Shown here in pieces: positions 1-16,540 of a stretch of DNA of 64,000 nt. The notes below the pieces were generated by a model. The model searched no databases. It was not told the DNA's origin and saw only the letters and a list, made by a program, of their open reading frames with translations. Source of the DNA: Escherichia coli (GTDB lineage: Bacteria > Pseudomonadota > Gammaproteobacteria > Enterobacterales > Enterobacteriaceae); NCBI RefSeq assembly GCF_009931435.1, contig NZ_CP043414.1. One strand, given 5' to 3'. Numbering within the stretch: the first letter of the stretch is position 1; each line of letters begins with the position of its first letter. Position numbers and translations under genes: made by a program.

Positions 1-893
1 GCGATATGCTCACGGATACCCTGCTGTCAACGGAGGGTGCGCCACACTATCCGGGAATGACTCACCGGCATCAGCTTGCTGACACCGTGGTAAACGGTTT
101 TTCTGCCGATCCACTCCAGGCACTTCAGTCCGAAAGCCTGATTACCGCGGGCGATCCGCTTTCAGGCATTGCGGCTGTCCGGCCATCGGCACCGCTGTCC
201 GATCCGGCAAGTAATGGGGGGATCAATACGCCGTTTATGGATCTGCCGCCCATTTATGCCAGCCCCGGCGAGCGTAATGATGACGTCTCTGTGGCAGAAA
301 TGGCGCAACGCCACCTTGCGGTCACCCCCTTACTGCGCGGCCTTGGCGGCTCGCTTACCGTGAGCAATTCCGACGATGCGGATGATTTTCTGGAGGAGGC
401 CGGACGCACGTTACAGGCCGCAATAAAAGGTCTGCTTGATTTGCAGCAGCAGCGTAACAGCCTCTCAGACAAACATTTGCGCCCGCTGGAAGATAACCCG
501 CTGCGCCTGAACATGGATTACGCCACCGCGCTCGACGTGATGTTTGCCGAAGGTAAAAGTCCGGTACATCTGGCGGCTCCCGCCGCTGTCAGTGAAAGCC
601 TGCGCAATGTCCGCCACCACGAAGAAGCTAACCGGGCGGCGATTGTGGAGTCGCTTCGTGTCCTGCTGGACGCCTTCTCACCACAAAATCTGCTGCGCCG
701 CTTTGTGCAGTACCGCCGCAGCCATGAACTGCGCCAGCCGCTGGATGATGCCGGAGCATGGCAAATGTACAGCCATTATTACGAAGAGCTGGCCTCTGAT
801 CGCCAGCAGGGGTTTGAGATGCTGTTTAACGAGGTCTACGCCCAGGTCTATGACCGGGTGCTTCGTGAAAAACAGCGGGAGCCGGAAGCATGA
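1..893 (+). CDS. T6SS cluster protein, 5'-truncated by the window edge; possibly the C-terminal part of an FHA-domain TagH-like protein
   Basis: Open frame runs to the window start and ends in an ATGA overlap with the next gene at 890-893. Position is immediately upstream of tssJ, as fha is in Vibrio-type vas clusters. No diagnostic motif lies in the visible part, so identity is inferred from context only. Confidence 0.4.
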   Translation, partial: DMLTDTLLSTEGAPHYPGMTHRHQLADTVVNGFSADPLQALQSESLITAGDPLSGIAAVRPSAPLSDPASNGGINTPFMDLPPIYASPGERNDDVSVAEMAQRHLAVTPLLRGLGGSLTVSNSDDADDFLEEAGRTLQAAIKGLLDLQQQRNSLSDKHLRPLEDNPLRLNMDYATALDVMFAEGKSPVHLAAPAAVSESLRNVRHHEEANRAAIVESLRVLLDAFSPQNLLRRFVQYRRSHELRQPLDDAGAWQMYSHYYEELASDRQQGFEMLFNEVYAQVYDRVLREKQREPEA

Positions 894-1414
894 ACAGGAA
901 GGCGTTTCTGGCCTGCGTGCTGATGTGCGTCATATTAACCGGCTGCGAAACGGCGAAAAAAATCAGCGAGGTGATCAAAAACCCGGATATCCAGGTCGGG
1001 AGCCTGAAGGAGCAACCTTCGGAAATAACCGTCACCCTGCTGACTGAACCGGACACTAATACCAATGCGGAGGGTGAATCAGCCGCCGTGGATGTGCAAC
1101 TGGTGTACCTGACGGACGACTCAAAATTGCAGGCAGCCGACTATGACCAGATAGCCAGTACGCCGCTACCGGATGTGCTGGGTAAAAACTATATCGACCA
1201 CCAGGATTTCAACCTGTTGCCGGACACCATCAAAACCCTGCCGCTGGTAAAGCTGGATGAGAAAACGCAGTTTATTGGTGTCGTGGCCTATTTCTCCGAT
1301 GACCAGGCCACGGAATGGAAACAAATCGAGACGGTGGAAGGAACCGGCCACCATTACCGCCTGCTGGTGCATGTACGTCAAAGCAGCATCGAAATGAAAA
1401 AAGAGGATGAATAA
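890..1414 (+). CDS. tssJ: T6SS outer-membrane lipoprotein TssJ
   Basis: 174 aa with signal peptide and lipobox (LTGC) at the N-terminus; size and position directly upstream of tssK-tssL fit TssJ; 4-nt overlap with the upstream gene. Confidence 0.75.
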   Translation: MNRKAFLACVLMCVILTGCETAKKISEVIKNPDIQVGSLKEQPSEITVTLLTEPDTNTNAEGESAAVDVQLVYLTDDSKLQAADYDQIASTPLPDVLGKNYIDHQDFNLLPDTIKTLPLVKLDEKTQFIGVVAYFSDDQATEWKQIETVEGTGHHYRLLVHVRQSSIEMKKEDE

Positions 1415-1416
1415 GT

Positions 1417-2748
1417 ATGGCAACCACCCGCAACAAGGTGATGTGGCAGGAAGGGATGCTGATGCGCCCACACCATTTCCAGCAACAGCAGCGTTACAAC
1501 GACTACCTGGATAACCAGCGTTTCCGGGCCATGAATGATTTATCCTGGGGATTTACCGAACTCACCCTCAACAATGAACTGCTGGCGCAGGGTAAGATCA
1601 TGATTGACAGCGCGTCAGGCACACTGCCCGACGGCACCGTCTTTTCTATCCCCGACCAGGACGCACTGCCCGATCCGCTGCACCCGCAAAATTTTCCGGA
1701 CGAAAGAAGCCGCAATATCTACCTCGCTCTGCCGGTCGCCAGTGATGTGAGAAATGAAATCAGCGACGGGCGGCGAATCGGGCGTTACCGGCTGAATTAT
1801 GCCGATGTCCGGGATTTGCATTCAGAAGAAGGCGACGCGCGAACACTGACGCTGGGACAACTGACGCCGCGCATTATGAGCGGTGCAGAAGATATGAGCG
1901 CCTATATCACGCTCCCGCTTTGCCGTATCAGCGATCGCCATGCCGACGGCTCCCTGACGCTGGATGACGATTTTATCCCCTCCTGCCAGAATATTCAGGT
2001 CAGTAAGAAACTGCGTGTTTATCTCAAAGAGGTACAGGGGGCCATTAGCGGACGGGCAAGCGATCTGGCAAACCGTATTGGCTCTCCGGCGCAGAGCGGC
2101 ATCGCGGATGTGGCGGAATTTATGATGTTGCAGTTGCTTAACCGTAACCAGACCCGGTTTACCCATCGCGCCCGCCGATCCCAGCTCCACCCGGAAGATT
2201 TCTACCTTGATCTTGCCGGGTTGCTGGGTGAACTGATGACCTTTACCGAGCCGTCGCGCCTGCCCTGCCCGCTTGATGTGTATGATCATCATGACCTGAC
2301 CAAAACATTTAAAACACTGTTACCGGAAGTCAAACGGGCGCTGCATACCGTACTGTCGCCAAGAGCCGTCAATCTGCCGCTGCATCTGCGTGACGGTATC
2401 TGGCAGGCCGATATCCATGACTCGGAACTGCTGCAATCTGCCACCTTTGTGCTGGCCGTGGCGGCAAATATGCCGGTCGATCAGATCCAGCGCCAGTTTA
2501 TCCAGCAGTCGAAAATTTCCTCGCCGGAAAAAATCCGCAATATGGTCAGTGTGCAGATCCCCGGCATTCCATTGCGTGCCCTGATGGTGGCTCCCCGTCA
2601 GCTTCCCTACCATTCCGGGTTCAGCTATTTCGAACTCGACAAGAGCGGACAGTCCTGGACAGAAATGGCTGCCGCCGGGGGCGTTGCGCTGCATGTATCC
2701 GGCAGTTTCCCGGATCTGAACATGCAACTGTGGGCGATAAGAGGGTAA
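1417..2748 (+). CDS. tssK: T6SS baseplate protein TssK
   Basis: 443 aa; N-terminus (NKVMWQEGMLMRPHHFQQQQRY) matches the conserved TssK N-terminal signature; purine-rich RBS upstream. Confidence 0.85.
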   Translation: MATTRNKVMWQEGMLMRPHHFQQQQRYNDYLDNQRFRAMNDLSWGFTELTLNNELLAQGKIMIDSASGTLPDGTVFSIPDQDALPDPLHPQNFPDERSRNIYLALPVASDVRNEISDGRRIGRYRLNYADVRDLHSEEGDARTLTLGQLTPRIMSGAEDMSAYITLPLCRISDRHADGSLTLDDDFIPSCQNIQVSKKLRVYLKEVQGAISGRASDLANRIGSPAQSGIADVAEFMMLQLLNRNQTRFTHRARRSQLHPEDFYLDLAGLLGELMTFTEPSRLPCPLDVYDHHDLTKTFKTLLPEVKRALHTVLSPRAVNLPLHLRDGIWQADIHDSELLQSATFVLAVAANMPVDQIQRQFIQQSKISSPEKIRNMVSVQIPGIPLRALMVAPRQLPYHSGFSYFELDKSGQSWTEMAAAGGVALHVSGSFPDLNMQLWAIRG

Positions 2749-2752
2749 GACG

Positions 2753-3514
2753 ATGGATGAGGGGTCACTGTCTCTGCCACCATTTACCGGATACGACGAA
2801 AAAAGCCAGCGCGACTATCATCTCGCGCTTCGTGGCAACAGCCTGAATCCGATGATCGACGCAGCCACGCCACTCCTCGGTATGGTGATGCGCCTTTCAA
2901 CCATGAACAGCCAGACGATGCCGGAGCATCTTTTTGCACAGGTGGTGACGGATGTTCAGGCCGTGGAGCAACTGCTTCAGGAGCAGGGCTACGAACCGGG
3001 CGTGATTATCTCGTTTCGCTACATCCTCTGCACATTTATTGATGAAGCGGCGCTCGGTAACGGCTGGTCGAACAAGAACGAGTGGATCAAACAGTCATTG
3101 CTGGTCCATTTCCACAACGAAGCCTGGGGTGGCGAGAAAGTTTTCATCCTGCTGGAGCGCCTGATCCGTGAACCCAAACGTTACCAGGATCTGCTGGAAT
3201 TTCTCTGGCTCTGTTTTTCTCTGGGATTTCGCGGGCGCTACAAAGTGGCAGCACAGGATCAGGGGGAATTTGAGCAGATCTACCGCCGCCTGTACCACGT
3301 TCTGCATAAACTGCGCGGCGATGCCCCTTTCCCGCTGTTACACCAGGACAAAAAAACCCAGGGCGGGCGTTATCAGCTCATCAGTCGCCTGACCATTAAA
3401 CATATTTTTTGTGGTGGCGTTGTCGTGCTGGCGTTGTTTTACCTGTTCTATCTGTTGCGGCTGGACAGCCAGACGCAGGACATCCTGCACCAGCTAAACA
3501 AATTACTTCGATAA
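2753..3514 (+). CDS. tssL: T6SS membrane-complex protein TssL (DotU family)
   Basis: 253 aa with a single C-terminal hydrophobic helix (GGVVVLALFYLFYLL), typical DotU/TssL architecture; follows tssK. Confidence 0.8.
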   Translation: MDEGSLSLPPFTGYDEKSQRDYHLALRGNSLNPMIDAATPLLGMVMRLSTMNSQTMPEHLFAQVVTDVQAVEQLLQEQGYEPGVIISFRYILCTFIDEAALGNGWSNKNEWIKQSLLVHFHNEAWGGEKVFILLERLIREPKRYQDLLEFLWLCFSLGFRGRYKVAAQDQGEFEQIYRRLYHVLHKLRGDAPFPLLHQDKKTQGGRYQLISRLTIKHIFCGGVVVLALFYLFYLLRLDSQTQDILHQLNKLLR

Positions 3515-3522
3515 GGACGTTT

Positions 3523-6282
3523 ATGATCCAGATTGATCTTCCCACGCTGGTAAAACGGCTTAACCTGTTCTCCCGCCAGGCGCTGGAGATGGCCGCCTCT
3601 GAATGTATGAGCCAGCAGGCAGCGGAAATTACCGTCAGCCATGTGCTTATTCAGATGCTCGCCATGCCACGCAGTGACCTGCGGGTTATTACCCGCCAGG
3701 GCGATATTGGCATGGAAGAGTTGCGCCAGGCGCTGACGGTGGAGAACTACACAACCGCCCGTTCTGCGGACAGCTACCCGGCGTTTTCCCCGATGCTGGT
3801 TGAGTGGCTGAAAGAGGGCTGGCTGCTGGCGTCGGCTGAGATGCAGCACAGCGAACTGCGCGGCGGCGTGTTGCTGCTGGCCCTGCTGCATTCGCCGCTG
3901 CGTTATATACCGTCTGCTGCCGCCCGGCTGTTGACCGGCATTAACCGTGACCGTCTGCAACAGGACTTTGTGCAGTGGACACAGGAGTCGACGGAATCAG
4001 TCGTGCCGGATGCAGACGGTAAAGGCGCAGGCACACTGACGGATGCTGCTGACACCCAGCTTGCCCGCTACGCCAAAAACATGACCGAAGATGCCCGTAA
4101 CGGCAGGCTTGACCCGGTACTGTGCCGCGACCACGAAATCGACCTGATGATCGACATTCTCTGCCGCCGCCGTAAAAATAACCCGGTGGTGGTGGGCGAA
4201 GCAGGCGTGGGTAAAAGCGCGCTGATTGAAGGGCTGGCGCTGCGCATCGTGGCAGGCCAGGTGCCGGACAAACTGAAAAACACCGATATCATGACCCTTG
4301 ACCTGGGCGCATTGCAGGCCGGGGCATCGGTGAAGGGCGAGTTTGAAAAACGCTTCAAGGGGCTGATGGCGGAGGTCATTTCCTCCCCGGTGCCAGTCAT
4401 TCTGTTTATCGACGAAGCGCATACCCTGATTGGGGCGGGCAACCAGCAGGGCGGGCTGGATATCTCCAACCTGCTCAAACCGGCGCTGGCGCGCGGCGAG
4501 CTGAAAACCATCGCCGCCACCACCTGGAGCGAGTACAAAAAATACTTCGAGAAAGACGCTGCCCTGTCGCGCCGCTTCCAGTTGGTGAAGGTCAGCGAAC
4601 CCAACGCCGCCGAAGCCACCATTATTCTGCGTGGTCTGTCGGCGGTCTATGAACAGTCTCACGGCGTACTGATTGATGATGACGCCTTGCAGGCCGCTGC
4701 GACATTAAGTGAGCGTTATCTCTCCGGGCGTCAGTTGCCGGACAAAGCGATTGATGTGCTGGATACGGCCTGCGCCCGCGTGGCAATCAACCTGTCATCG
4801 CCACCAAAGCAAATCTCAGCGCTGACCACCCTGAGCCACCAGCAGGAGGCGGAAATTCGCCAGCTTGAGCGCGAGCTTCGCATCGGGCTGCGTACCGACA
4901 CCTCGCGGATGACGGAGGTGCTGGTGCAGTATGATGAAACGCTGACGGCGCTGGACGAACTGGAAGCCGCCTGGCATCAGCAACAGACGCTGGTACAGGA
5001 AATTATCGCGCTGCGCCAGCAGTTGCTGGGTATGGCAGAAGACGATGCGGCGTCGTTGCCGGACGCAGATGCCGTGGGGGATATGCCGTCGGAGTCAGAG
5101 CAGGATAATACCGGTGCCGCACCGGCTGATGAAGCTGGCAGCGCACAGCCGGAAGAAACCGCTGAAACAGTTTCCCCGGTACAACGGCTGGCACAGCTTA
5201 CTGCCGAACTGGACGCCCTGCATAACGACCGGTTGCTGGTCTCCCCGCACGTCGATAAAAAACAGATTGCGGCGGTGATTGCCGAATGGACCGGCGTGCC
5301 GCTTAACCGCCTGTCGCAGAATGAAATGTCGGTCATCACCGACCTGCCAGTATGGCTGGGCGACACCATCAAAGGCCAGGACCTGGCGATTGCCAGCCTG
5401 CATAAACATCTGCTGACCGCACGCGCCGACCTGCGCCGTCCGGGACGCCCGCTTGGCGCGTTCCTGCTGGCTGGCCCCAGCGGCGTGGGTAAAACCGAAA
5501 CCGTCCTGCAACTGGCAGAGCTTCTCTACGGTGGTCGCCAGTACCTGACCACCATCAATATGTCCGAGTTCCAGGAGAAGCACACCGTCTCGCGGCTGAT
5601 TGGTTCCCCTCCGGGCTATGTCGGCTATGGTGAAGGCGGCGTGCTGACCGAAGCCATCCGCCAGAAACCCTACTCAGTGGTGCTCCTCGATGAAGTGGAA
5701 AAAGCGCACCCGGATGTGCTCAACCTGTTCTACCAGGCGTTTGACAAGGGCGAGATGGCAGACGGCGAAGGCCGCCTGATTGACTGTAAAAACATCGTCT
5801 TCTTCCTCACCTCCAACCTTGGCTACCAGGTGATTGTCGAACACGCCGATGACCCGGAGACCATGCAGGAAGCCCTCTATCCGATGCTGGCGGACTTCTT
5901 TAAACCTGCCCTGTTGGCGCGTATGGAAGTGGTGCCGTACCTGCCTCTGTCGAAAGAGACGCTCGCCACCATTATTGCCGGGAAACTCACCCGTCTGGAT
6001 AACGTGCTGCGCAGTCGCTTTGGTGCGGAAGTGATTATTGAGCCGGAAGTGACGGACGAAATTATGAGCCGCGTCACCCGAGCGGAAAACGGCGCAAGGA
6101 TGCTCGAATCAGTCATCGACGGCAACATGCTGCCGCCGCTCTCGCTGCTGCTGTTGCAGAAGATGGCAGCCAACACGGCGATTGCCCGGATTCGTCTGTC
6201 GGCGGCAGACGGTGCATTCACAGCAGACGTGGAAGATGCTCAGGACGACGAGTCCGTCACAGAGGATGAAACGGTTTTATGA
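3523..6282 (+). CDS. clpV: T6SS AAA+ ATPase ClpV (TssH)
   Basis: Two AAA+ modules with Walker A motifs GEAGVGKS and GPSGVGKT and ClpB-like architecture. Start placed at ATG 3523 (MIQIDLPTLVKRLN), downstream of the tssL stop; the ORF-track start at 3409 overlaps tssL and is rejected. Confidence 0.9.
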   Translation: MIQIDLPTLVKRLNLFSRQALEMAASECMSQQAAEITVSHVLIQMLAMPRSDLRVITRQGDIGMEELRQALTVENYTTARSADSYPAFSPMLVEWLKEGWLLASAEMQHSELRGGVLLLALLHSPLRYIPSAAARLLTGINRDRLQQDFVQWTQESTESVVPDADGKGAGTLTDAADTQLARYAKNMTEDARNGRLDPVLCRDHEIDLMIDILCRRRKNNPVVVGEAGVGKSALIEGLALRIVAGQVPDKLKNTDIMTLDLGALQAGASVKGEFEKRFKGLMAEVISSPVPVILFIDEAHTLIGAGNQQGGLDISNLLKPALARGELKTIAATTWSEYKKYFEKDAALSRRFQLVKVSEPNAAEATIILRGLSAVYEQSHGVLIDDDALQAAATLSERYLSGRQLPDKAIDVLDTACARVAINLSSPPKQISALTTLSHQQEAEIRQLERELRIGLRTDTSRMTEVLVQYDETLTALDELEAAWHQQQTLVQEIIALRQQLLGMAEDDAASLPDADAVGDMPSESEQDNTGAAPADEAGSAQPEETAETVSPVQRLAQLTAELDALHNDRLLVSPHVDKKQIAAVIAEWTGVPLNRLSQNEMSVITDLPVWLGDTIKGQDLAIASLHKHLLTARADLRRPGRPLGAFLLAGPSGVGKTETVLQLAELLYGGRQYLTTINMSEFQEKHTVSRLIGSPPGYVGYGEGGVLTEAIRQKPYSVVLLDEVEKAHPDVLNLFYQAFDKGEMADGEGRLIDCKNIVFFLTSNLGYQVIVEHADDPETMQEALYPMLADFFKPALLARMEVVPYLPLSKETLATIIAGKLTRLDNVLRSRFGAEVIIEPEVTDEIMSRVTRAENGARMLESVIDGNMLPPLSLLLLQKMAANTAIARIRLSAADGAFTADVEDAQDDESVTEDETVL

Positions 6283-7022
6283 GCAGGTTGCGCGTTTTCC
6301 GGCAGACAGGATGGTTTATCGCGGGCCTGATGGCGGGCTTACCCGCCAGTGCCGCGCCCGCAGAAACATCGTCAGTGGCCGGTGTGGCGGTAGCTGTCGC
6401 CACAGCGACACCGCCGGATGCGACAGCCACGTTACAGGCCATGCGGTCCTGTCGCCAGGAGACGGCGGCGCTGGAGCGGCTTGACTGCTATGACCGCCTG
6501 CTGGCACCCCTTTCTCCGTCAGGGTTTGACGGGGCGCTGGTCAAAGCCGGTTTTGTGGGCGAGGCCTGGACCCGCGCCACAGAGCAGGAAAAACGCCGCC
6601 AGGGCAACACCACAGAGCTGCTGGTGACGCAGGTGCCGGGAGAACGCCCGACGGTGGTGGTAACCACCCCGGCTATCGGCCATGTTCCGCCTCGCCCGGT
6701 GCTGATGTTCAGCTGTGTGGACAATATCACCCGGATGCAGGTGGCGCTGGTGCACCCTCTGGATGTCCATGATATCGCCGTCACCCTGAATGCCGACAGC
6801 CGGGTATTGCGCAGCCACTGGTTTGTGCGCGAGAACGGCACCCTGCTGGAGTCCAGCCGGGGGCTGTCCGGGATTGATGAAATTAAGCAACTGTTCGGCG
6901 CAAAAACGCTGACGGTGGATACCGGCGCAGATAACGCCGCCGGAAAGCTGACCTTTAACATTGACGGGCTAGCAAGGGCGATTGCCCCCCTGCGCGATGC
7001 CTGCCACTGGGCGGGAGAATAA
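6279..7022 (+). CDS. T6SS-associated secreted/periplasmic protein, VasI-like
   Basis: 247 aa with N-terminal signal peptide; occupies the vasI position between clpV and tssA; ATGA start/stop overlap with clpV. Confidence 0.55.
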   Translation: MSRLRVFRQTGWFIAGLMAGLPASAAPAETSSVAGVAVAVATATPPDATATLQAMRSCRQETAALERLDCYDRLLAPLSPSGFDGALVKAGFVGEAWTRATEQEKRRQGNTTELLVTQVPGERPTVVVTTPAIGHVPPRPVLMFSCVDNITRMQVALVHPLDVHDIAVTLNADSRVLRSHWFVRENGTLLESSRGLSGIDEIKQLFGAKTLTVDTGADNAAGKLTFNIDGLARAIAPLRDACHWAGE

Positions 7023-7026
7023 AAAT

Positions 7027-8442
7027 ATGGCAATGGACTTACGCGATCCGAATGTCTGGATATCGCACCTGCTGGAAAACCTGCCGGAAGAGAAACTGGC
7101 ATCGGCGCTGAAAGATGACAACCCGGACTGGGAGTATATCGACGGCGAAATCGTCAAACTGGGTTCACTGGCCCACAGCCAACTGGATATCCCGGAACTC
7201 CAGCGCCGGGGGCTGGTCATTCTGGCTTCGGAGAGTAAGGATTTTCGTCTGCTGGCACACCTGCTCAGAACCCTGCAACATGCCGGTGATCCACTGCTGG
7301 CACTGCGCCTGCTGGCGCTATACGTGGAACATTACTGGACTGTGGCCGCGCCGCAGAATATGGCGCATAAAAAACGCTTTGCCAGCCAGATCATTAAACG
7401 TTTTGAAACGGGTATTGAAGGCTTTTCACAGAACGCCGCCACCGCGCAGCGCGATGCACTATTAGGTGAACTGGCGAAACTGGCGCAGTGCTGGCAGTCA
7501 CATAACGCCCCGGAACTGGCAGAGGCTACTGATGATCTTTTTGCCCTGTACCAGCGTGCGTTTAATCGTGCGGCACCGGCTCCTGCCCACACTCCGGCGG
7601 CCTCCGGTAGTTCACCACAGACCACCGCCACGTCTGAAAGCGGCGTGACGCAAACCAGTGCTCCGGCTCCACAGATCGCCATCGACAGTCACGACGACAA
7701 AGCCTGGCGCGACACGCTGTTAAAAGTGGCGGCCATTTTATGTGAACGCCAGCCGGACTCGCCGCAGGGCTATCGCCTGCGCCGCCATGCCCTGTGGCAA
7801 TCCATCACCAGTACGCCCCAGGCGGAAAGCGATGGACGCCCCCCACTGGCTGCGGTCTCCGCCGATATGGTGGCAGATTACCATGCTCAGCTCGGTAGTG
7901 CCGATATGGCGCTGTGGCAGCAGGTGGAAAAAAGCGTACTGCTGGCACCCTACTGGCTGGACGGTCACTGCATTTCTGCACAGACGGCGCACCGTCTTGG
8001 CTATACCGCCGTGGCCGATGCCATCCGCGATGAAGTCGTTTCCTTTCTTGGCCGTCTGCCCGCGCTCGCTGATCTTCTGTTTAACGACCACACACCGTTT
8101 GTTTCTGAAAAAACGAAGCAATGGCTTGCAACTCAGCCAGGTAACCAGGCCGCGCCAGTCATACAGGTGAGTAATGAAGATATTCAGGCTGCGCGGTTGT
8201 GTTTTGATGAACAGGGGCTGGAAGCCGCCTTACGGTATCTGGATACGTTGCCCGCCGGTGAACCCCGCGACCAGTTTCACCGGCAGTATTTTGGCGCGCA
8301 GCTTATGGAAGAGGCGGGGCTGGTACAGCTTGCGCAGCAGCAGTACCGGATGTTGTTCAGGATGGGATTGCAGATGATGGTGGCAGACTGGGAGCCGTCC
8401 CTGCTTGAGCAGCTAGAACAAAAATTCACGGCAGAACAATAA
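7027..8442 (+). CDS. tssA: T6SS protein TssA (VasJ-type, ImpA N-terminal domain family)
   Basis: About 471 aa from ATG 7027 (MAMDLRDPNVW); sits at the vasJ position upstream of tssM; N-terminal region resembles the ImpA-N domain. Family assignment is by context and general resemblance. Confidence 0.65.
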   Translation: MAMDLRDPNVWISHLLENLPEEKLASALKDDNPDWEYIDGEIVKLGSLAHSQLDIPELQRRGLVILASESKDFRLLAHLLRTLQHAGDPLLALRLLALYVEHYWTVAAPQNMAHKKRFASQIIKRFETGIEGFSQNAATAQRDALLGELAKLAQCWQSHNAPELAEATDDLFALYQRAFNRAAPAPAHTPAASGSSPQTTATSESGVTQTSAPAPQIAIDSHDDKAWRDTLLKVAAILCERQPDSPQGYRLRRHALWQSITSTPQAESDGRPPLAAVSADMVADYHAQLGSADMALWQQVEKSVLLAPYWLDGHCISAQTAHRLGYTAVADAIRDEVVSFLGRLPALADLLFNDHTPFVSEKTKQWLATQPGNQAAPVIQVSNEDIQAARLCFDEQGLEAALRYLDTLPAGEPRDQFHRQYFGAQLMEEAGLVQLAQQQYRMLFRMGLQMMVADWEPSLLEQLEQKFTAEQ

Positions 8443-8460
8443 AAGAGAACAGGAGTTTTT

Positions 8461-11400
8461 GTGTTCAGATTACCAACACCCCGACTATTCAGCGGACTCA
8501 AATCAGCCCTGCGCCCGGCGATGCCCCGGTTTAAAGTTTCTGCATTCTGGCTGCTGATACTGGCGTGGATTTTCCTGCTGGTATGGATCTGGTGGAAAGG
8601 CCCGGCATGGACGCTGGATGAAGAGCAGTGGCTCAAACCACTGGCGAACCGCTGGCTGGCAACGGCGGCGTGGGGGATTATTGCCCTGGTGTGGCTTACC
8701 GTCCGGGTAATGAAGCGCCTGCAACAGCTTGAAAAAATGCAAAAGCAACAGCGCGAGGAAGCCGTTGATCCGCTCAGTGTGGAACTGAACGCCCAGCAGC
8801 GTTACCTCGACCGCTGGCTGCTGCGCCTGCAACGCCATCTCGACAACCGCCGTTTCCTGTGGCAGTTGCCGTGGTATATGGTCATCGGTCCTGTGGGCAG
8901 TGGCAAAACGACACTGCTGCGCGAGGGGTTTCCGTCAGACATTATTTATGCCCCGGAGGGCGCGCACGGCGCAGAACAACGCCTGTACCTCACGCCCCAT
9001 GTCGGTAAACAGGCGGTGATCTTTGATATCGACGGCACACTCTGCGCTCCCGCTGATGCGGATATCCTGCATCGCCGTCTGTGGGAACATGCCCTCGGCT
9101 GGCTGAAGGAAAAGCGCGCGCGCCAGCCGCTGAACGGGATTATTCTGACACTCGATTTACCCGATCTGCTGACCGCAGACAAACGCCGCCGCGAGCATCT
9201 GTTACAGACGCTGCGCAGCCGCTTACAGGATATACGCCAGCATCTTCATTGCCAGTTACCGGTTTACGTGGTACTGACCCGGCTTGATTTATTGCAGGGT
9301 TTTGCCGCCCTGTTTCAGTCACTGAACAGACAGGATCGCGATGCGATTCTGGGTGTTACGTTCACCCGCCGTGCTCATGAAAATGATGACTGGCGAACAG
9401 AGTTGAATGCTTTCTGGCAGACATGGGCGGATCGAATGAATCTGGCGTTGCCGGATCTGATGGTCACCCAGACTCACACCCGCGCGTCTTTATTTAGTTT
9501 TTCCCGCCAGATGCAGGGAAGCCGTGAACCGCTGATATCACTGCTGGAGGGTCTGCTTGACGGCGAAAATATGAACGTGATGCTGCGTGGTGTCTATCTC
9601 ACCTCTTCGCTTCAGCGTGGACAGATGGATGATATATTCACCCAGTCTGCTGCCCGCCAGTACCGACTGGGCAATAACCCACTGGCGTCCTGGCCTCTGG
9701 TGGACACCGCGCCTTATTTCACCCGCAGCCTGTTCCCGCAGGCATTACTCGCAGAGCCTAATCTGGCAACAGAGAGCCGCGCCTGGCTGATGCGTTCCCG
9801 TCGCCGCCTGACGGTTTTCTCTGCCACAGGCGGCGTGGCGGCACTGCTGCTCATCACCGGCTGGAATCACTATTACAACGGTAACTATCAGTCCGGCATC
9901 ACCGTGCTTAAGCAGGCCAAAGCCTTTATGGACGTGCCGCCTCCGCAGGGGGAAGATGACTTTGGTAACCTACAACTGCCGCTGCTGAACCCGGTACGCG
10001 ATGCCACACTGGCCTATGGCGACTGGGGTGACCGCAGCCGCCTGGCCGATATGGGACTGTACCAGGGGCGACGTATCGGGCCTTATGTGGAACAGACCTA
10101 TCTGCAACTGCTGGAGCAGCGTTACCTGCCCTCGCTGTTTAACGGGCTGGTCAAAGCGATGAACGCCGCACCGCCGGAGAGTGAGGAAAAACTCGCGGTG
10201 CTGCGCGTGATGCGAATGCTGGAGGACAAAAGCGGACGCAACAATGAGGTGGTGAAGCAGTATATGGCAAAACGCTGGAGCGAAAAGTTCCACGGACAGC
10301 GCGATATCCAGACACAACTGATGTCCCATCTTGACTACGCGCTGGCTCATACTGACTGGCATGCAGAGCGTCAGGCGGGCGACGGTGATGCCATCAGCCG
10401 CTGGACGCCATATGACAAGCCTGTTGCGACAGCACAGAAAGAACTGAGCAAACTGCCTGTCTACCAGCGGGTTTACCAGAGCCTGAAAACGCGGGCGCTG
10501 GGCGTTCTTCCTGCTGACCTCAATCTGCGTGACCAGGTAGGGCCAACCTTTGACCAGGTGTTTACATCTGCCGATGATAACAAACTGGTTGTTCCACAGT
10601 TTCTTACCCGTTACGGCCTGCAAAGCTATTTTGTAAAACAGCGCGATGAACTGGTTGAACTGACGGCGATGGATTCCTGGGTACTCAACCTCACCCGCAG
10701 CGTGAAATACAGTGACGCCGACCGCGCGGAAATTCAGCGCCAGTTGACCGAGCAGTATATCAGCGACTACACCGCCACCTGGCGGGCCGGGATGGACAAT
10801 CTCAATATCCGCAATTTTGAGTCCATTGGACAACTGACTGGCACTCTGGAGCAGGTTATCAGCGGCGACCAGCCTTTGCAGCGGGCGCTGACCGTGCTGC
10901 GTGACAACACACAGCCAGGCGTCTTTTCTGAAAAACTCTCTGCCAAAGAGCGGGATGAGGCCCTGGCAGAGCCGGATTACCAGTTACTCACCCGCCTCGG
11001 GCATGAATTCGCCCCGGAAAACAGTACCCTGACAGTACAGAAAGACAAAGAAAGCACGATGCAGGCCGTATACCAGCAGCTCACCGAGTTACACCGCTAC
11101 CTGCTGGCAATCCAGAACGCGCCTGTACCAGGGAGATCGGCGCTGAAAGCCGTGCAGTTAAGGCTTGATCAGAACTGCAGCGATCCAATATTCGCCACCC
11201 GCCAGATGGCAAAAACACTGCCTGCTCCGCTCAACCGCTGGGTAGGCAGGCTGGCTGACCAGGCCTGGCATGTGGTGATGGTGGAAGCCGTTCACTATAT
11301 GGAAGTGGACTGGCGCGACAGCGTGGTGAAACCGTTTAACGAGCAACTGGCAAATAACTATCCGTTTAATCCACGTTCTGCACAGGATGCCTCACTGGAT

Positions 11401-11985
11401 GCCTTCGAACGATTCTTTAAACCGGATGGCGTACTGGATACCTTCTACCAGCAGAACCTGAAACTGTTTATCGACAATGATCTGAGCCTGGAAGACGGCG
11501 ATAACAGCGTCATTATCCGCGAAGATATTATTGCGCAACTGGAAACCGCGCAGAAAATCCGTGACATCTTCTTCAGCAAACAGAACGGTCTGGGAACATC
11601 CTTTGCCGTGGAAACGGTATCGCTTTCCGGCAACAAACGCCGCAGCGTACTGAACCTTGACGGCCAGTTAGTCGATTACAGCCAGGGCCGTAACTATACC
11701 GCCCATCTGGTCTGGCCTAACAATATGCGCGAAGGCAACGAAAGCAAACTGACGCTGGTTGGTGCCAGCGGCGGCGCACCGCGCAGTATCAGCTTCAGCG
11801 GGCCGTGGGCGCAGTTCCGCCTGTTCGGGGCCGGACAACTGACCGGAGTACAGGATGGCAACTTTACCGTGCGCTTTAGCGTGGACGGTGGCGCGATGAC
11901 CTACCGTGTGCATACCGACACCGAGGATAACCCGTTCAGCGGTGGGTTGTTCAGCCAGTTTGGTCTGTCAGACACACTGTACTGA
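8461..11985 (+). CDS. tssM: T6SS membrane-complex protein TssM (IcmF family)
   Basis: 1174 aa; N-terminal transmembrane helices, Walker A NTP-binding motif GPVGSGKTTLL and long periplasmic C-terminal region; GTG start preceded by AGGAG at 8451-8455. Confidence 0.9.
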   Translation: MFRLPTPRLFSGLKSALRPAMPRFKVSAFWLLILAWIFLLVWIWWKGPAWTLDEEQWLKPLANRWLATAAWGIIALVWLTVRVMKRLQQLEKMQKQQREEAVDPLSVELNAQQRYLDRWLLRLQRHLDNRRFLWQLPWYMVIGPVGSGKTTLLREGFPSDIIYAPEGAHGAEQRLYLTPHVGKQAVIFDIDGTLCAPADADILHRRLWEHALGWLKEKRARQPLNGIILTLDLPDLLTADKRRREHLLQTLRSRLQDIRQHLHCQLPVYVVLTRLDLLQGFAALFQSLNRQDRDAILGVTFTRRAHENDDWRTELNAFWQTWADRMNLALPDLMVTQTHTRASLFSFSRQMQGSREPLISLLEGLLDGENMNVMLRGVYLTSSLQRGQMDDIFTQSAARQYRLGNNPLASWPLVDTAPYFTRSLFPQALLAEPNLATESRAWLMRSRRRLTVFSATGGVAALLLITGWNHYYNGNYQSGITVLKQAKAFMDVPPPQGEDDFGNLQLPLLNPVRDATLAYGDWGDRSRLADMGLYQGRRIGPYVEQTYLQLLEQRYLPSLFNGLVKAMNAAPPESEEKLAVLRVMRMLEDKSGRNNEVVKQYMAKRWSEKFHGQRDIQTQLMSHLDYALAHTDWHAERQAGDGDAISRWTPYDKPVATAQKELSKLPVYQRVYQSLKTRALGVLPADLNLRDQVGPTFDQVFTSADDNKLVVPQFLTRYGLQSYFVKQRDELVELTAMDSWVLNLTRSVKYSDADRAEIQRQLTEQYISDYTATWRAGMDNLNIRNFESIGQLTGTLEQVISGDQPLQRALTVLRDNTQPGVFSEKLSAKERDEALAEPDYQLLTRLGHEFAPENSTLTVQKDKESTMQAVYQQLTELHRYLLAIQNAPVPGRSALKAVQLRLDQNCSDPIFATRQMAKTLPAPLNRWVGRLADQAWHVVMVEAVHYMEVDWRDSVVKPFNEQLANNYPFNPRSAQDASLDAFERFFKPDGVLDTFYQQNLKLFIDNDLSLEDGDNSVIIREDIIAQLETAQKIRDIFFSKQNGLGTSFAVETVSLSGNKRRSVLNLDGQLVDYSQGRNYTAHLVWPNNMREGNESKLTLVGASGGAPRSISFSGPWAQFRLFGAGQLTGVQDGNFTVRFSVDGGAMTYRVHTDTEDNPFSGGLFSQFGLSDTLY

Positions 11986-11995
11986 GGAGGCAGGG

Positions 11996-13348
11996 ATGAA
12001 TAGTAACGTACTGACACAAACTATCGTTACCGGCAGTGACCCGCGCGGGCTGCCGGAATTCAGCGCCATCCGCGAGGAAATAAACAAAGCCAGCCACCCG
12101 TCACAGCCTGAGCTGAACTGGAAACTGGTGGAGTCGCTGGCGCTGGCGATTTTTAAAGCTAACGGTGTGGATTTACACACCGCCACCTACTATACGCTTG
12201 CACGGACACGGACACAGGGACTGGCGGGCTTTTGCGAAGGTGCGGAACTGCTGGCGGCAATGGTAAGCCACGACTGGGATAAGTTCTGGCCGCAGGGCGG
12301 CCCGGCGCGTACTGAAATGCTGGACTGGTTTAACTCCCGAACCGGCAATATTCTGCGTCAGCAAATCTCCTTTGCGGAATCCGACCTACCACTGATCTAC
12401 CGCACGGAGCGGGCATTGCAGCTTATCTGCGACAAACTCCAGCAGGTAGAGCTGAAGCGCGTTCCGCGCGTGGAGAATCTGCTCTATTTTATGCAGAACA
12501 CGCGTAAACGGCTTGAACCCCAGCCGAAGAGTAACGCCGAGAACACCTCACAGACCACGGTCAGAACGCTGATTTATGCACCGGAAACAATGGCTTCCTC
12601 CACGCCAGAAGCAGTAGTGCCTCCCCTGCCCGACCTGCCCGAGATGAAAGTGGAAGTGCGCAGTCTGTCAGAAAATCCCCCACAGGCCAGTGTGATGAAG
12701 CAAGGCAGTACGGTAAGAGGGTTTATCGCAGGGATCGTCTGTTCAGTGGCTGTCGCCTCAGCATTGTGGTGGTGGCAGGTCTATCCGGTGCAGCAGCAAC
12801 TGTTACAGGTTAACGACACCGCGCAGGGCGCAGCAACGGTGTGGATGGCCTCACCTGAACTCGAAAACTATGAGCGCAGGTTGCAACAGCTTCTTGGCGT
12901 CTCCCCGGTACAACCGCTGGAAACCGGAATGCAGATGATGCGTGTTGCCGACAGTCGCTGGCCGGAAAGCCTGCAACAGCAACAGGCCTCGACACAATGG
13001 AATGAGGCACTCAAAACCCGCGCACAGAGTAGCCCGCAGTTGCGTGGCTGGTTGCAGACCCGCCAGGACTTACATGCTTTTGCAGATCTCGTGATGCAGC
13101 GCGAGAAAGAGGGACTAACCCTTTCCTATATCAAAAATGTCATCTGGCAGGCGGAGCGGGGACTGGGGCAGGAAACACCCCTGGAATCCCTGCTGACGCA
13201 GTACCAGGATGCCCGTGCACAGAAGCAGAATACAGATGCGCTGGAAAAACAAATTAATGAGCGACTCGAAGGCGTGTTAAGCCGCTGGCTGCTGCTGAAG
13301 AATAACGTCATGGCAGAGGCGGCAACCGGGACCACGACCGGAAAATAA
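11996..13348 (+). CDS. T6SS accessory protein, VasL/TagA-like, membrane-anchored
   Basis: About 450 aa from ATG 11996 with GAGGAGG RBS; one internal hydrophobic helix (FIAGIVCSVAVASALWWW); occupies the vasL position immediately after tssM. Confidence 0.55.
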   Translation: MNSNVLTQTIVTGSDPRGLPEFSAIREEINKASHPSQPELNWKLVESLALAIFKANGVDLHTATYYTLARTRTQGLAGFCEGAELLAAMVSHDWDKFWPQGGPARTEMLDWFNSRTGNILRQQISFAESDLPLIYRTERALQLICDKLQQVELKRVPRVENLLYFMQNTRKRLEPQPKSNAENTSQTTVRTLIYAPETMASSTPEAVVPPLPDLPEMKVEVRSLSENPPQASVMKQGSTVRGFIAGIVCSVAVASALWWWQVYPVQQQLLQVNDTAQGAATVWMASPELENYERRLQQLLGVSPVQPLETGMQMMRVADSRWPESLQQQQASTQWNEALKTRAQSSPQLRGWLQTRQDLHAFADLVMQREKEGLTLSYIKNVIWQAERGLGQETPLESLLTQYQDARAQKQNTDALEKQINERLEGVLSRWLLLKNNVMAEAATGTTTGK

Positions 13349-13371
13349 TTATTTAGTTAAAGGAGATTATC

Positions 13372-13854
13372 ATGGCAAATATGAGTTATTTATCTTTAAG
13401 TGGGGAGACACAAGGGCTGATTTCAGCGGGTTGCTCAACGCTTGACTCTGTCGGAAACAAAGCGCAGTTAGAGCATAAAGATCAGATCATGGTTTATGCG
13501 CTAATGCACTCCATCTCAAGAAGTCAGAATGTCAATCATCATGAACTGGTCATCACCAAGCCTGTTGATAAATCCTCACCGTTGCTGGCAAAAGCACTTA
13601 GTGACAATGAAAAAATGACAGCGTGTGAATTTATACTCTACCGAACCAGTAAAGAGGGCATTAACCAGCCTTACTATAAAATAAATCTGTCAAAAGCCAG
13701 GATATCAAGTATTGATTTTGTCACACCTCATGCTGTTCTGGAAAAAGAACTGGAGCCACAGGAGAGAATTGCCTTTATTTATGAAGATATTTCCTGGGAG
13801 CATACGTTAGCCAGGACGAATGCAATGAGTAAATGGCAGGATCGTGTACAGTAA
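13372..13854 (+). CDS. hcp: T6SS tube protein Hcp (TssD)
   Basis: 160 aa; N-terminus MANMSYLSLSGETQG and overall size match the Hcp family; AAGGAG RBS; lower GC than the upstream core genes. Confidence 0.9.
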   Translation: MANMSYLSLSGETQGLISAGCSTLDSVGNKAQLEHKDQIMVYALMHSISRSQNVNHHELVITKPVDKSSPLLAKALSDNEKMTACEFILYRTSKEGINQPYYKINLSKARISSIDFVTPHAVLEKELEPQERIAFIYEDISWEHTLARTNAMSKWQDRVQ

Positions 13855-13896
13855 CATACTGCAATAACATAATAACTTACTATTACGGAGAGATAA

Positions 13897-14811
13897 ATGG
13901 CTGGTTTAAGGAATAATAACAACACACAGAATGCACAGTGGGCTGATTATGTGGGTGACATTCTTCGGGGGTCTCAGCCGATAAACCAGCTAGTACCTCA
14001 GCACCCTTATCTTAACGACATCCCACTCATTGATGAGTTAAGGCGTCAGAACACTCATCATGTTATTCTTTTGACATTTGATGTTGCAAAAAAAATACTC
14101 AACCCAATAACATCATTTGATTACATTCATTTTATCACTACACATCCTTCAGGTATAAAAGATACACTAGCCTGGTTAGTTAACGCGGGTAAATTAATGA
14201 CTGAGTTTGATGAAAATGGGAAAATTATATTTAACCTTAATACCTTAAAGTATACAAAAGCAAGTTACTTTGAAATACTTGGAGAGAAATATATAAAAAT
14301 CACAACATCCAGCCCCTGGCTTTTAGAAAAGCTCGGTAAATATATTTTCTCTTCACGAGCGCCTCAAGTTCTGGAGCTCGCTATTGGCTGGCGAGGAGCT
14401 TTATCTGAATCAATAAAAGGAGTTAAGTTCTGTATCTGGTTTTCAGTAGCCTGGAGAACCATAGAATTTATTATGAGTTCAGAGCGAGATCTGGTTAATT
14501 TTCTTGGTGATTTTTCAATGGATGTGGCCAAAGCAGTGATTGCAGGCGGTGTTGCAACCGCTATTGGAAGCCTGGCTTCTTTTGCCTGTCTTAGTTTTGG
14601 CCTTCCAGTAATTCTTGTAGGAGGAGCAATTTTACTTACAGGGATAGTGTGTACAGTTGTTTTAAATGAAATCGATGCTCAATACCATTTATCAGAAAAA
14701 TTAAAAGATGCAATTAGAGATGGACTAAAACAGCAACAGGAACTTGATAAATGGAAAAGGGAAAACATGACTCCATTTATGTATGTTCTTAACACCCCCC
14801 CCGTGATATGA
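13897..14811 (+). CDS. Hypothetical protein with C-terminal glycine-rich transmembrane helices; candidate T6SS effector
   Basis: 304-aa ORF 42 nt downstream of hcp with RBS; AT-rich; C-terminal third has 2-3 hydrophobic helices with small-residue motifs (VIAGGVATAIGSLASFACLSF, LPVILVGGAILLTGIVCTVVL). The C-terminal 112 codons from an internal ATG at 14473 appear to match what I recall as the K-12 yafU remnant (from memory, unverified). Confidence 0.6.
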   Translation: MAGLRNNNNTQNAQWADYVGDILRGSQPINQLVPQHPYLNDIPLIDELRRQNTHHVILLTFDVAKKILNPITSFDYIHFITTHPSGIKDTLAWLVNAGKLMTEFDENGKIIFNLNTLKYTKASYFEILGEKYIKITTSSPWLLEKLGKYIFSSRAPQVLELAIGWRGALSESIKGVKFCIWFSVAWRTIEFIMSSERDLVNFLGDFSMDVAKAVIAGGVATAIGSLASFACLSFGLPVILVGGAILLTGIVCTVVLNEIDAQYHLSEKLKDAIRDGLKQQQELDKWKRENMTPFMYVLNTPPVI

Positions 14812-14820
14812 GGATTAACT

Positions 14821-15288
14821 ATGTGTTTACATGTTAAATTGAAAGAGTTTCTTTCGATGTTTTTTATAGCCATGTTATTTTTCCCTGCATTCAATGCTTC
14901 TTTGTTTTTTACCGGAATTAAACCTCTATACTCAATAATAAAAGGCTCCACGGAAATATTTTATGATTGGAGAATGTTGATTCTATTCTTCGGTTTCATA
15001 TCGTTTTCCTTGTTAAATATTCATGTAATTTTACTAACGATAATAAAATCATTCTTAATAAAAAAAACAAAGGTAATCAATTTCGCCACAAACATAACAA
15101 TACAGCTAACTCTTATATTTTTACTAATAGCTATCGTAATAGCACCTTTAATAGCTCCTTTTGTCACAGGATATGTCAATGCTAATTATCACCTCTGCGG
15201 TAATAACACGGGGATTTTCCCAGGAGCAATCTATATTAAAAATGGCATGGAATGTAATAATGATTATATTTCTCACAAGGAAGATTAA
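14821..15288 (+). CDS. Small polytopic inner-membrane protein; candidate immunity protein (possibly the ykfM homologue)
   Basis: 155 aa, extremely AT-rich, at least three predicted transmembrane helices; starts 9 nt after the stop of the 304-aa gene. Position relative to yafT and aspV matches my recollection of K-12 ykfM. Confidence 0.55.
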   Translation: MCLHVKLKEFLSMFFIAMLFFPAFNASLFFTGIKPLYSIIKGSTEIFYDWRMLILFFGFISFSLLNIHVILLTIIKSFLIKKTKVINFATNITIQLTLIFLLIAIVIAPLIAPFVTGYVNANYHLCGNNTGIFPGAIYIKNGMECNNDYISHKED

Positions 15289-15429
15289 GCAGTTAAATAT
15301 TATAAAACAAACAGTTTTTAACTCCGGATTCCATGTCCTTTTTTGCACTGTCTTTGTCAGGAAAAAATTTCTTATGCAAAGAATTTTGTATTATTGCCGC
15401 CAGAAATCCCTGCCGGCAGATATAATTTA

Positions 15430-16215
15430 TTATTGATAGCGGTTAACCAAATCTTTTACCATCGCTTTATAGGTCTTTTGCTTAAGTTGCATGATTTGCT
15501 GCTCTGTCATATCAGTCGTACTGGCTTCATTCTTGCCGGGCAATGGTGGAAGCACTTTATATTCATAATTCATCGGCGACCAGGCAGCCCACTCACCTGT
15601 AGCTACATCCACCAGCGTGAATCGCACCAGATAGCGCAGTGAGATTGTGTTAGTCAGTTTTTCATTTTTATAATCGGACCATACTGTTGATTTCAGCGCA
15701 GAGTCATATTTTCCTGTCTGCAACGTATCATGGTAAACAATAATCGCTTTCTGATGCCCTTTCGCAGCCACAAAACGCAATGCCTGCATCCAGTTCATAT
15801 TTTCAGCACTGGCAACATCCTCGTTCTCATTTTTATCTTTATTTTTGTTACAAGTCAGAGGCTTTTGCCTGTCCGGGATACCAGAGAATGTGGAAACAGT
15901 ATAATATTTTCTCATCTCCTCCTGCATAATGGTTTCCGGTGCGCGACTGCCAGACTGGACAAGTATTACGGGAGAATTGAGAGGCACACGAAACTCATCT
16001 CCTTCAAGCGCAGCCTGAATATCCTCCTCGGATACAGCCAGAGTGGTTTCATTACCGAATAAATCTTTGTCTGTCAGTTGCGGGGGAATGTTTTTATTAA
16101 TATTACTTTGTGTAACCTGAGCTTTTTTCTTTTTTTCATCAATAGAAGATTGAGAGGCACATCCTGCAAGCAGCGAGAATAATACACATATGCAACAAAC
16201 CTTTTTTGAATTCAT
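15430..16215 (-). CDS. yafT: Lipoprotein YafT
   Basis: 261 aa with signal peptide and lipobox (LLAGC); size and location next to aspV correspond to yafT of the E. coli backbone. Confidence 0.65.
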
Positions 16216-16482
16216 AATCGGACACTCCCTCGCCTGTCATAATGATTAGAATATTTAGCACTGATAACGGACTCTAATTATATACCCCACTTAAATAATA
16301 ACAAACAAAATCAACATGAAATATACATTCATTTAATCAATATAAAATTATTCTCTAAAAATATATTTAAGTTGAATGGTTCTATATCATTATTGAATTT
16401 TAATAAATGAGACAACAAGAGAGAGTTACACACTTACGCCAGAGTAAAATCATTGAACAGAGAAATTGCGGGATTTAAATGC

Positions 16483-16514
16483 AAAAAAACCGCAAAATTA
16501 AAAATCTTGCGGTT
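16483..16514 (-). terminator. Rho-independent terminator downstream of aspV
   Basis: On the minus strand: inverted repeat AACCGCAA / TTGCGGTT followed by a T-run (plus-strand A-run at 16484-16489). Confidence 0.5.
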
Positions 16515-16540
16515 CTCTGAACTCATTTTCATGAGTGAAT

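What the first reader, a model, noticed from the sequence alone, without database searches (positions are those of the whole stretch)
4960..5200. Acidic low-complexity insertion in the ClpV coiled-coil region
ClpV contains a stretch (GMAEDDAASLPDADAVGDMPSESEQDNTGAAPADEAGSAQPEETAETVSP) rich in Asp/Glu/Ala/Pro between the two AAA+ modules, within what should be the middle coiled-coil domain. VasI (AAPAETSSVAGVAVAVATATPPDATATLQ) and TssA (PAPAHTPAASGSSPQTTATSESGVTQTSAPAPQ) carry similar Ala/Pro/Thr-rich linkers. These are probably disordered linkers, but an insertion in the ClpV middle domain could affect sheath recognition.
Basis: seen in the sequence. Interest (0 to 1): 0.15.

Follow-up and report, generated by a model that had tools for sequence, protein, structure and literature searches.

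The report
Floppy acidic loop in ClpV ATPase
The acidic stretch is real: it is a roughly 40-residue, probably unstructured loop at the outer tip of the coiled-coil arm of the type VI secretion ATPase ClpV/TssH, at a spot that varies freely in this protein family and that in many E. coli strains holds an expanding Glu-Ser repeat, so it is a fairly ordinary variable loop and not a new device.

Summary
ClpV/TssH is window 3523-6282 (919 aa). The 50-aa segment is aa 503-552 (nt 5029-5178). It has net charge -14 and no Lys/Arg, and it is the most acidic 50-aa stretch of any long ORF in the window.

AlphaFold2 (pLDDT 91.9) places it at the distal turn of the M-domain hairpin. Helix 461-510 is followed by a low-confidence loop at 511-551, then helix 552-567.

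Across 127 diverse TssH representatives this zone is typically about 40 aa shorter. About 10% carry long, unrelated, always net-acidic inserts at the same site.

Within Escherichia the insert evolves fast: 72% variable sites against 14% in the AAA+ modules, and omega about 0.55 against about 0.1. It stays acidic throughout.

In E. coli genomes the site hosts an in-frame GAGTCA (Glu-Ser) repeat of 0-32 copies. The window has one copy.

Best reading: a tolerated disordered acidic loop, constrained in composition but not in sequence.

The link to sheath recognition is not, because recognition is reported to go through the N-domain.

Interest is low.

The parts
3523..6282 (+). tssH/clpV coding sequence (919 aa plus stop). 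The mechanical ORF starts earlier, at TTG 3409, overlapping tssL.
   Evidence: TIGR03345 scores 1125 bits against a cutoff of 885. The RefSeq tssH in the 96%-identical E. coli locus L001 has the same layout, starting 9 nt after icmH.
4807..4884 (+). M-domain helix 1 (aa 429-454)
   Evidence: DSSP on the AlphaFold2 model, pLDDT above 90
4903..5052 (+). Long M-domain helix 2 (aa 461-510).
5029..5178 (+).
5053..5175 (+). Predicted unstructured loop (aa 511-551) at the distal turn of the M-domain hairpin. This is the actual insertion relative to most TssH.
   Evidence: No secondary structure is predicted. 10-residue block pLDDT values are 69, 46, 44, 59. The zone 505-552 is 48 aa here against a median of 11 aa in 127 TssH representatives.
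5092..5097 (+). Single GAGTCA unit (Glu524-Ser525). In E. coli strains this unit is expanded in frame to as many as 32 Glu-Ser copies.
   Evidence: Tandem Repeats Finder finds no array in the window itself.
5176..5223 (+). Last M-domain helix (aa 552-567), modelled after the loop; from the hairpin reading it should pack back on helix 2 (coordinates not inspected)
6351..6437 (+). VasI Ala/Pro/Thr-rich stretch (aa 25-53) right after a signal-peptide-like N-terminus. It is not acidic.
   Evidence: VasI matches TIGR03360 only from aa 55 onward.
7576..7674 (+). TssA Pro/Ala/Ser/Thr-rich interdomain linker
   Evidence: TssA matches TIGR03362. Several substitutions are seen against E. coli L001.

Best explanation
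The segment is a solvent-exposed, intrinsically disordered acidic loop at the far tip of the ClpV M-domain helical hairpin. By position it corresponds to the turn of ClpB's 'motif 2', the part that contacts Hsp70/DnaK in ClpB. Most ClpVs have only a short acidic turn there. Inference: because this tip has no sequence-specific partner in ClpV, it tolerates insertions. Its length drifts by replication slippage, seen in E. coli as (GAGTCA)n = (Glu-Ser)n. Selection appears to keep only a hydrophilic, negatively charged, non-sticky composition. It probably has little or no effect on the core job of ClpV, which is N-domain capture of the contracted TssB/TssC sheath followed by threading through the two AAA+ rings. 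Shown here: position, predicted disorder, insertion status, fast sequence evolution, retained acidity and copy-number polymorphism. Inferred: that no specific function exists.
For: AlphaFold2 on an alignment of 125 TssH gives mean pLDDT 91.9 and pTM 0.80. It models helices 429-454, 461-510 and 552-567, with 511-551 lacking structure at pLDDT 44-69. Composition and charge-hydropathy also indicate disorder. In 127 diverse TssH representatives the zone matching aa 497-556 has a median of 20 aa (IQR 14-26.5) against 60 here. The whole M-region has a median of 137 aa against 177 here. For most homologues HMMER breaks the match at about aa 495-515. Thirteen of the 127 have at least 30 aa in the zone matching aa 505-552, with unrelated low-complexity sequences. 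These include Proteus mirabilis (65% identical overall, 61 aa against 60) and a Planctomycetota MAG. Among 120 Escherichia sequences that are 92-98% identical, 72% of insert sites vary, against 14% in D1 and 15% in D2. Pooled Nei-Gojobori omega is 0.55 in the insert, against 0.12 and 0.08 in the flanks. E. coli alleles range from 43 to 112 aa with 0-32 Glu-Ser units and intact reading frames. In a spread sample of 59 genomes every length difference (-21 to +186 nt) is a multiple of 3.
Against: The loop is not free to become anything. Omega is 0.55, not 1. Every Escherichia allele stays strongly acidic (net -12 to -47, at most 1 Lys/Arg). All 16 inserts of 25 aa or more in other TssH lineages are net negative. 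Even short tips average -0.14 charge per residue, against -0.02 for whole proteins. Escherichia and Proteus keep nearly the same length. This points to selection on charge, and possibly length, so some electrostatic role is plausible. Low pLDDT in an insert with no aligned homologues may also partly reflect missing alignment information. No experiment was available.
Confidence: 0.6

Rival explanations
1. The loop is functional as a charged element. An acidic 'bristle' on the M-domain tip would tune ClpV regulation. By analogy with ClpB M-domains, which dock on neighbouring D1 domains to repress the motor, it could modulate M-domain docking, ATPase activity or hexamer stability. It could also keep ClpV from sticking to nucleic acid or to other surfaces. 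On this view length and charge matter, but exact sequence does not.
For: Acidity is retained in every allele and in all 16 unrelated long inserts. Short tips are acidic too. Omega is 0.55, below 1. Length is similar in Escherichia and Proteus. The position matches ClpB motif 2, which is regulatory in ClpB (established knowledge; alignment).
Against: Length varies from 43 to 112 aa among E. coli strains with open reading frames. Most TssH manage with about 11 residues here. Acidic composition is typical of bacterial disordered loops in general. No literature on a role for the ClpV M-domain was found.
Confidence: 0.25
2. The E. coli Glu-Ser repeat acts as a contingency or tuning locus. Slippage-driven copy-number change at the M-domain tip would alter ClpV activity and so T6SS firing between closely related strains.
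For: The array is a perfect hexanucleotide repeat (18.8 copies at 100% match in L002). Copy number ranges from 0 to 32 and differs even among O157:H7 genomes (+12, +18 and +24 nt). One allele is frameshifted inside the array by a 2-nt insertion.
Against: The unit is 6 nt, so slippage preserves the frame and cannot act as an on/off switch. The window itself has only one unit. No phenotype data exist. The single frameshift could be an assembly error or ordinary gene decay: two other alleles are annotated with internal stops and one is truncated.
Confidence: 0.1
3. One reading: the insertion alters recognition of the contracted sheath.
For: None beyond its presence in ClpV.
Against: Sheath binding is attributed to the ClpV N-domain helix that binds the VipB/TssC N-terminus (PMC7182274). 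This protein has a ClpV-type N-domain, with similarity to solved ClpV N-domains 3zri (E 4e-33) and 4hh5. The loop is hypervariable within a species whose sheath proteins are presumably conserved, although that conservation was not tested here.
Confidence: 0.05

Closest known systems
ClpB/Hsp104 M-domain, motif 2 (turn from helix L2 into L3/L4; Hsp70-binding tip, Tyr503 in E. coli ClpB)
   Same: Same fold and the same insertion point in the D1 small subdomain. The protein aligns to E. coli ClpB at E 1e-150, and ClpB, ClpC and Hsp104 are the best structural matches. There is a long helix 2 of about 50 residues, and the segment sits where ClpB 480-520 aligns.
   Different: It fails the ClpB model (684 bits against a cutoff of 1232). 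No L3-like helix is predicted and no ordered tip is modelled. Between the same anchors the region is 177 aa, against 150 in ClpB. ClpV is not known to work with DnaK (established knowledge).
Typical TssH/ClpV, meaning the family consensus TIGR03345 and most of the 127 representatives
   Same: Same family, domain order and T6SS gene context. The M-domain tip is acidic and hydrophilic in the family generally.
   Different: Typical members have about 11 residues in the tip zone, against 48 here. The query spans 878 residues over 848 profile positions.
Proteus mirabilis TssH (P0001, 65% identical)
   Same: An insert of nearly identical length (61 aa against 60 in the zone) at the same site, also acidic and low-complexity.
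   Different: The insert sequence is essentially unrelated (Asn/Asp/Val/Ala-rich, with its own small DVAN repeat). Either an old insert has diverged beyond recognition, or the two gains were independent.
Coding hexanucleotide VNTRs of E. coli, of the kind used for MLVA typing
   Same: The E. coli alleles of this site behave like such a locus. The 6-nt unit is perfect, in frame, and its copy number varies between related strains.
   Different: The window allele has a single unit. I could not establish whether this site is one of the named MLVA loci (CVN016/017, EHC-x), because no primer or position data were in the papers read.

Membership tests
TssH/ClpV (T6SS ATPase) | Scores above the curated cutoff of the equivalog model TIGR03345 | tested here: met
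   1125.4 bits against a cutoff of 884.95, covering profile positions 4-851 of 852
TssH/ClpV (T6SS ATPase) | Encoded within a T6SS gene cluster | tested here: met
   The order is TagH, TssJ, TssK, TssL, TssH, VasI, TssA, TssM, a TssA-like protein, then Hcp. The layout is the same in annotated E. coli.
TssH/ClpV (T6SS ATPase) | ClpV-type N-domain, the part that binds the sheath subunit N-terminus | tested here: met
   aa 2-159 match the solved ClpV N-domain 3zri (E 4e-33), and also 4hh5 and 4uqw. Actual binding is not testable here.
Hsp100/Clp class 1 | Two AAA+ modules with Walker A and Walker B motifs | tested here: met
   Pfam AAA (223-334), AAA_lid_9, AAA_2 (642-803) and ClpB_D2-small are all hit. 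G228/G230/K231, D297, G651/G654/G656/K657 and D723/E724 are invariant across 125 TssH.
Hsp100/Clp class 1 | Coiled-coil M-domain inserted after the D1 lid | tested here: met
   AlphaFold2 models helices 429-454, 461-510 and 552-567 at pLDDT above 90
ClpB disaggregase | Scores above the ClpB equivalog cutoff | tested here: not met
   TIGR03346 gives 684 bits against 1232. NF008118 gives 550 against 1417.
ClpB disaggregase | Ordered motif 2 tip (L3 helix, Hsp70-contact Tyr) | tested here: not met
   ClpB residues of about 480-520 align only with gaps against the acidic loop. No helix is predicted between 510 and 552.
Intrinsically disordered region | Low-complexity, low-hydrophobicity, high net charge; no predicted structure | tested here: met
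   composition, charge-hydropathy; pLDDT 44-69, no secondary structure. These are predictions only.
Coding VNTR / microsatellite | Tandem array of a short unit whose copy number differs between strains | tested here: not met
   In the window there is one GAGTCA unit and no TRF hit. In E. coli homologues the feature is met: 0-32 copies, and 18.8 perfect copies in L002.
Phase-variable contingency gene | Repeat slippage switches the reading frame on and off | tested here: not met
   The unit is 6 nt. All 59 sampled length differences are multiples of 3. Only one frameshifted allele was seen, caused by a 2-nt insertion.

The most novel reading that the evidence does not exclude
The acidic tip of the ClpV M-domain is a real regulatory element. 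Its charge and length would set how strongly the M-domains restrain the motor, or how ClpV partitions in the cell. The E. coli (Glu-Ser)n repeat would then be a fast-mutating knob that tunes sheath recycling, and so T6SS firing rate, between closely related strains.
Probability: 0.08. Interest if true: 0.5.

Novelty: new member of a known kind. Interest (0 to 1): 0.2.

Why it matters
Mostly housekeeping value. It marks a permissive site at the M-domain tip, around aa 511-551, where ClpV tolerates 40-110 extra residues. That is useful for inserting tags or reporters without touching the N-domain or the AAA+ rings. It also flags an in-frame hexanucleotide VNTR in E. coli tssH that varies even within O157:H7. 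That repeat could serve as, or may already be, a typing marker. It may also disturb automated naming: the four alleles seen with about 18 or more copies were all called 'AAA family ATPase'. If the family-wide acidity of the tip proves functional, it would give a first handle on what the ClpV M-domain does. I found nothing on that in the literature searched.

Tried and rejected
- **Repeats in the window.** Tandem Repeats Finder on window 3000-9000 found no array in the segment. Small-seed repeat search in 4950-5250 gave only short pairs at chance level. So the window's insert is not itself repetitive DNA.
- **Regex anchors.** Anchors for the M-region caught only 34 of the representatives. I replaced them with column anchors from a MAFFT alignment.
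- **Literature.** ClpV + VNTR, ClpV + middle domain + insertion, ClpV + M-domain and tandem repeat + T6SS + MLVA returned nothing on this loop or on a repeat in tssH. Forster 2014 does not mention the M-domain. Pietrosiuk 2011 is not held.
- **MLVA locus identity.** I tried to identify the repeat with a named MLVA locus (CVN014/016/017, EHC/EH111 loci). The papers read give no primers or positions, so this is left open.
- **Rejected: a foreign or mobile insertion.** The reading frame is continuous. GC is 62% in the insert against 59% for the gene.
- **Rejected: antisense ORFs.** The ORFs at 4977-5372 and 5095-5583 are treated as by-products of a GC-rich gene. This was not tested further.
- **Rejected: an on/off phase switch.** The 6-nt unit keeps the frame.

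Full report
**What is there**

The ORF covering the finding runs from 3409 to 6282. The biologically sensible start is ATG 3523, giving a 919-aa protein. The 96%-identical E. coli locus L001 annotates tssH with the same layout.

The protein passes NCBI's equivalog model for the T6SS ATPase TssH/ClpV: TIGR03345 scores 1125 bits against a cutoff of 885. It fails the ClpB models. Pfam finds both AAA+ modules, the D1 lid and the D2 small domain. Residues 2-159 match solved ClpV N-domains.

The neighbouring genes are TagH, TssJ, TssK, TssL, then TssH, VasI, TssA, TssM, a TssA-like protein and Hcp. The cluster has 59% GC against 52% for the window. It ends next to tRNA-Asp at 16542-16618, followed by dnaQ and rnhA. 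This is an aspV-adjacent T6SS island of an Escherichia genome. dnaE is at least 99% identical to only 10 of 5,423 E. coli genomes and 95-99% identical to the rest.

**Check of the observation**

The quoted 50-residue peptide is encoded at nt 5029-5178 (aa 503-552). It has 14 Asp/Glu, no Lys/Arg, 88% D/E/A/P/S/T/G/Q and 10% hydrophobic residues. It falls on the disordered side of the charge-hydropathy boundary. It is the most negatively charged of 16,030 50-aa windows from 56 long ORFs in the window.

They are Ala/Pro/Thr-rich, not acidic. The VasI stretch follows a signal-peptide-like N-terminus. The TssA stretch separates two domains.

**Where it sits in the fold**

I ran AlphaFold2 on an alignment of 125 TssH sequences. 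The model is confident, with mean pLDDT 91.9 and pTM 0.80.

- The M-domain consists of helix 429-454, a 50-residue helix 461-510 and a final helix 552-567.
- Residues 511-551 have no secondary structure, with 10-residue block pLDDT of 69, 46, 44 and 59.
- The insert is therefore the turn at the distal end of the helical hairpin.

In the HMMER alignment to E. coli ClpB the segment lies opposite ClpB residues of about 480-520. That is the end of helix L2 and the L3/L4 turn of motif 2, which in ClpB contacts Hsp70 (established knowledge). The best structural matches are ClpC, ClpB and Hsp104. The PDB sequence search returned only N-domains for ClpV.

A caveat applies. Low pLDDT in a segment without aligned homologues may partly reflect missing information. 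The composition points the same way, however.

**Is it an insertion?**

I took 127 near-full-length TssH representatives, each standing for a 50%-identity cluster.

| Region (query coordinates) | Query | Representatives |
|---|---|---|
| Between conserved anchors, aa 413-589 | 177 aa | median 137 (IQR 130-144) |
| Tip zone, aa 497-556 | 60 aa | median 20 (IQR 14-26.5) |
| Loop zone, aa 505-552 | 48 aa | median 11 |

ClpB has 150 aa between the same anchors. For most homologues HMMER splits the match at about residue 500. So the segment is about 40 residues longer than in a typical ClpV and is not conserved.

It is not unique, though. Thirteen of 127 representatives have at least 30 residues in the loop zone, all low-complexity and mutually unrelated. 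One is Proteus mirabilis TssH (65% identical, 61 aa against 60 in the tip zone). Another is from a Planctomycetota MAG. All 16 inserts of 25 aa or more are net negative. Short tips are equally acidic: -0.14 charge per residue, against -0.02 for whole proteins.

**Evolution within Escherichia**

Among 120 E. coli and E. albertii sequences that are 92-98% identical to the query, 72% of insert positions vary. The figures are 14% in D1 and 15% in D2. The other variable parts are the N-D1 linker and the C-terminal tail.

On codon alignments of 16 alleles, pooled omega is 0.55 in the insert. It is 0.12 and 0.08 in the flanks. Net charge stays between -12 and -47, with at most one basic residue. Constraint is therefore relaxed but compositional.

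**An unexpected feature in relatives**

Half of the complete E. coli genomes (2,735 of 5,426) carry this tssH. The matched span differs in length between strains.

- Fetched alleles show an in-frame tandem array of GAGTCA (Glu-Ser) right after Pro522-Ser523.
- Copy number ranges from 0 to 32 units, giving inserts of 43-112 aa.
- The array is 18.8 perfect copies in O111:H11 strain 88.0502.
- In a spread sample of 59 genomes the length differences run from -21 to +186 nt and are all multiples of 3. O157:H7 genomes differ among themselves (+12, +18, +24).
- One allele, annotated as frameshifted, carries a 2-nt insertion inside the array.
- The window has one unit, at 5092-5097, and no array.

**Interpretation**

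The simplest account is a tolerated, disordered acidic loop at a tip that has no sequence-specific partner in ClpV. It grows and shrinks by slippage, and only its hydrophilic, negative character is kept (confidence 0.6).

The persistent acidity across alleles and across unrelated lineages keeps a charge-dependent regulatory role open (0.25). With it comes a tuning role for the repeat (0.1).

The paper read here attributes recognition to the N-domain (PMC7182274).

**Novelty**

The gene is routinely annotated. I found no description of this loop, of the family-wide acidic tip, or of the repeat in tssH. Whether the repeat is a named MLVA locus remains open.

It is a new example of a familiar kind of feature: a variable disordered loop, or coding VNTR, in a well-known protein. 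Interest is low, at 0.2.

Noticed in passing
E. coli loci L002, L005, L006, L009, L011-L014 (site equivalent to window 5092-5097): An in-frame (GAGTCA)n = (Glu-Ser)n array of 0-32 copies sits inside tssH and varies even among O157:H7 genomes. It may coincide with a published MLVA locus, but this could not be checked.
   Followed up: partly
E. coli hits H7, H21, H36, H43 (loci L002, L009, L013): The four alleles seen with about 18 or more Glu-Ser copies are named 'AAA family ATPase' in RefSeq instead of TssH. Most shorter alleles keep the TssH name, although H15 (+6 nt) also lost it. This is possibly an annotation side effect of the repeat.
   Followed up: no
L003 (NZ_CP091029.1), locus positions 893-978: The array reads (GAGTCA)2-GA-(GAGTCA)12. 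The 2-nt insertion frameshifts tssH, and the gene is annotated as a pseudogene. This could be real slippage or an assembly error. Other alleles carry internal stops (L007, L010) or a truncation (L012), so this T6SS is decaying in some strains.
   Followed up: partly
window 6178-6279 (TssH aa 886-919) and 4003-4056 (aa 161-178): Two more acidic, variable, low-confidence stretches occur in the same protein. One is the C-terminal tail (…DVEDAQDDESVTEDETVL, net -8, 50% variable sites). The other is the N-domain/D1 linker (72% variable sites, pLDDT about 50).
   Followed up: partly
window 13897-14811 (+), 14821-15288 (+), 15430-16215 (-): Three ORFs between hcp and tRNA-Asp have no NCBIfam match. 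They are possible T6SS cargo, such as effector and immunity genes, at the island's edge.
   Followed up: no
window 11906-13348 (+): A 480-aa ORF downstream of tssM has only a sub-threshold match to the TssA N-terminal region (84 bits against a cutoff of 230). The E. coli counterpart is annotated as a 'VasL domain-containing protein'. It is probably a TagA/VasL-type accessory protein.
   Followed up: no
window 1-16618; tRNAs at 16542-16618 and 24763-24839: The T6SS cluster has 59% GC against 52% for the window, and it abuts tRNA-Asp next to dnaQ and rnhA. A second tRNA-Asp plus tRNA-Ala and tRNA-Ile mark an rRNA operon at roughly 24.7-30.3 kb. dnaE is at least 99% identical to only 10 of 5,423 E. 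coli genomes, so the source is a divergent Escherichia lineage.
   Followed up: partly
P0001 (Proteus mirabilis TssH), M-domain tip: Its insert of equal length contains its own small repeat (…NDDVANDVANNEVV…). This suggests that slippage-type growth at this site is not limited to E. coli.
   Followed up: no
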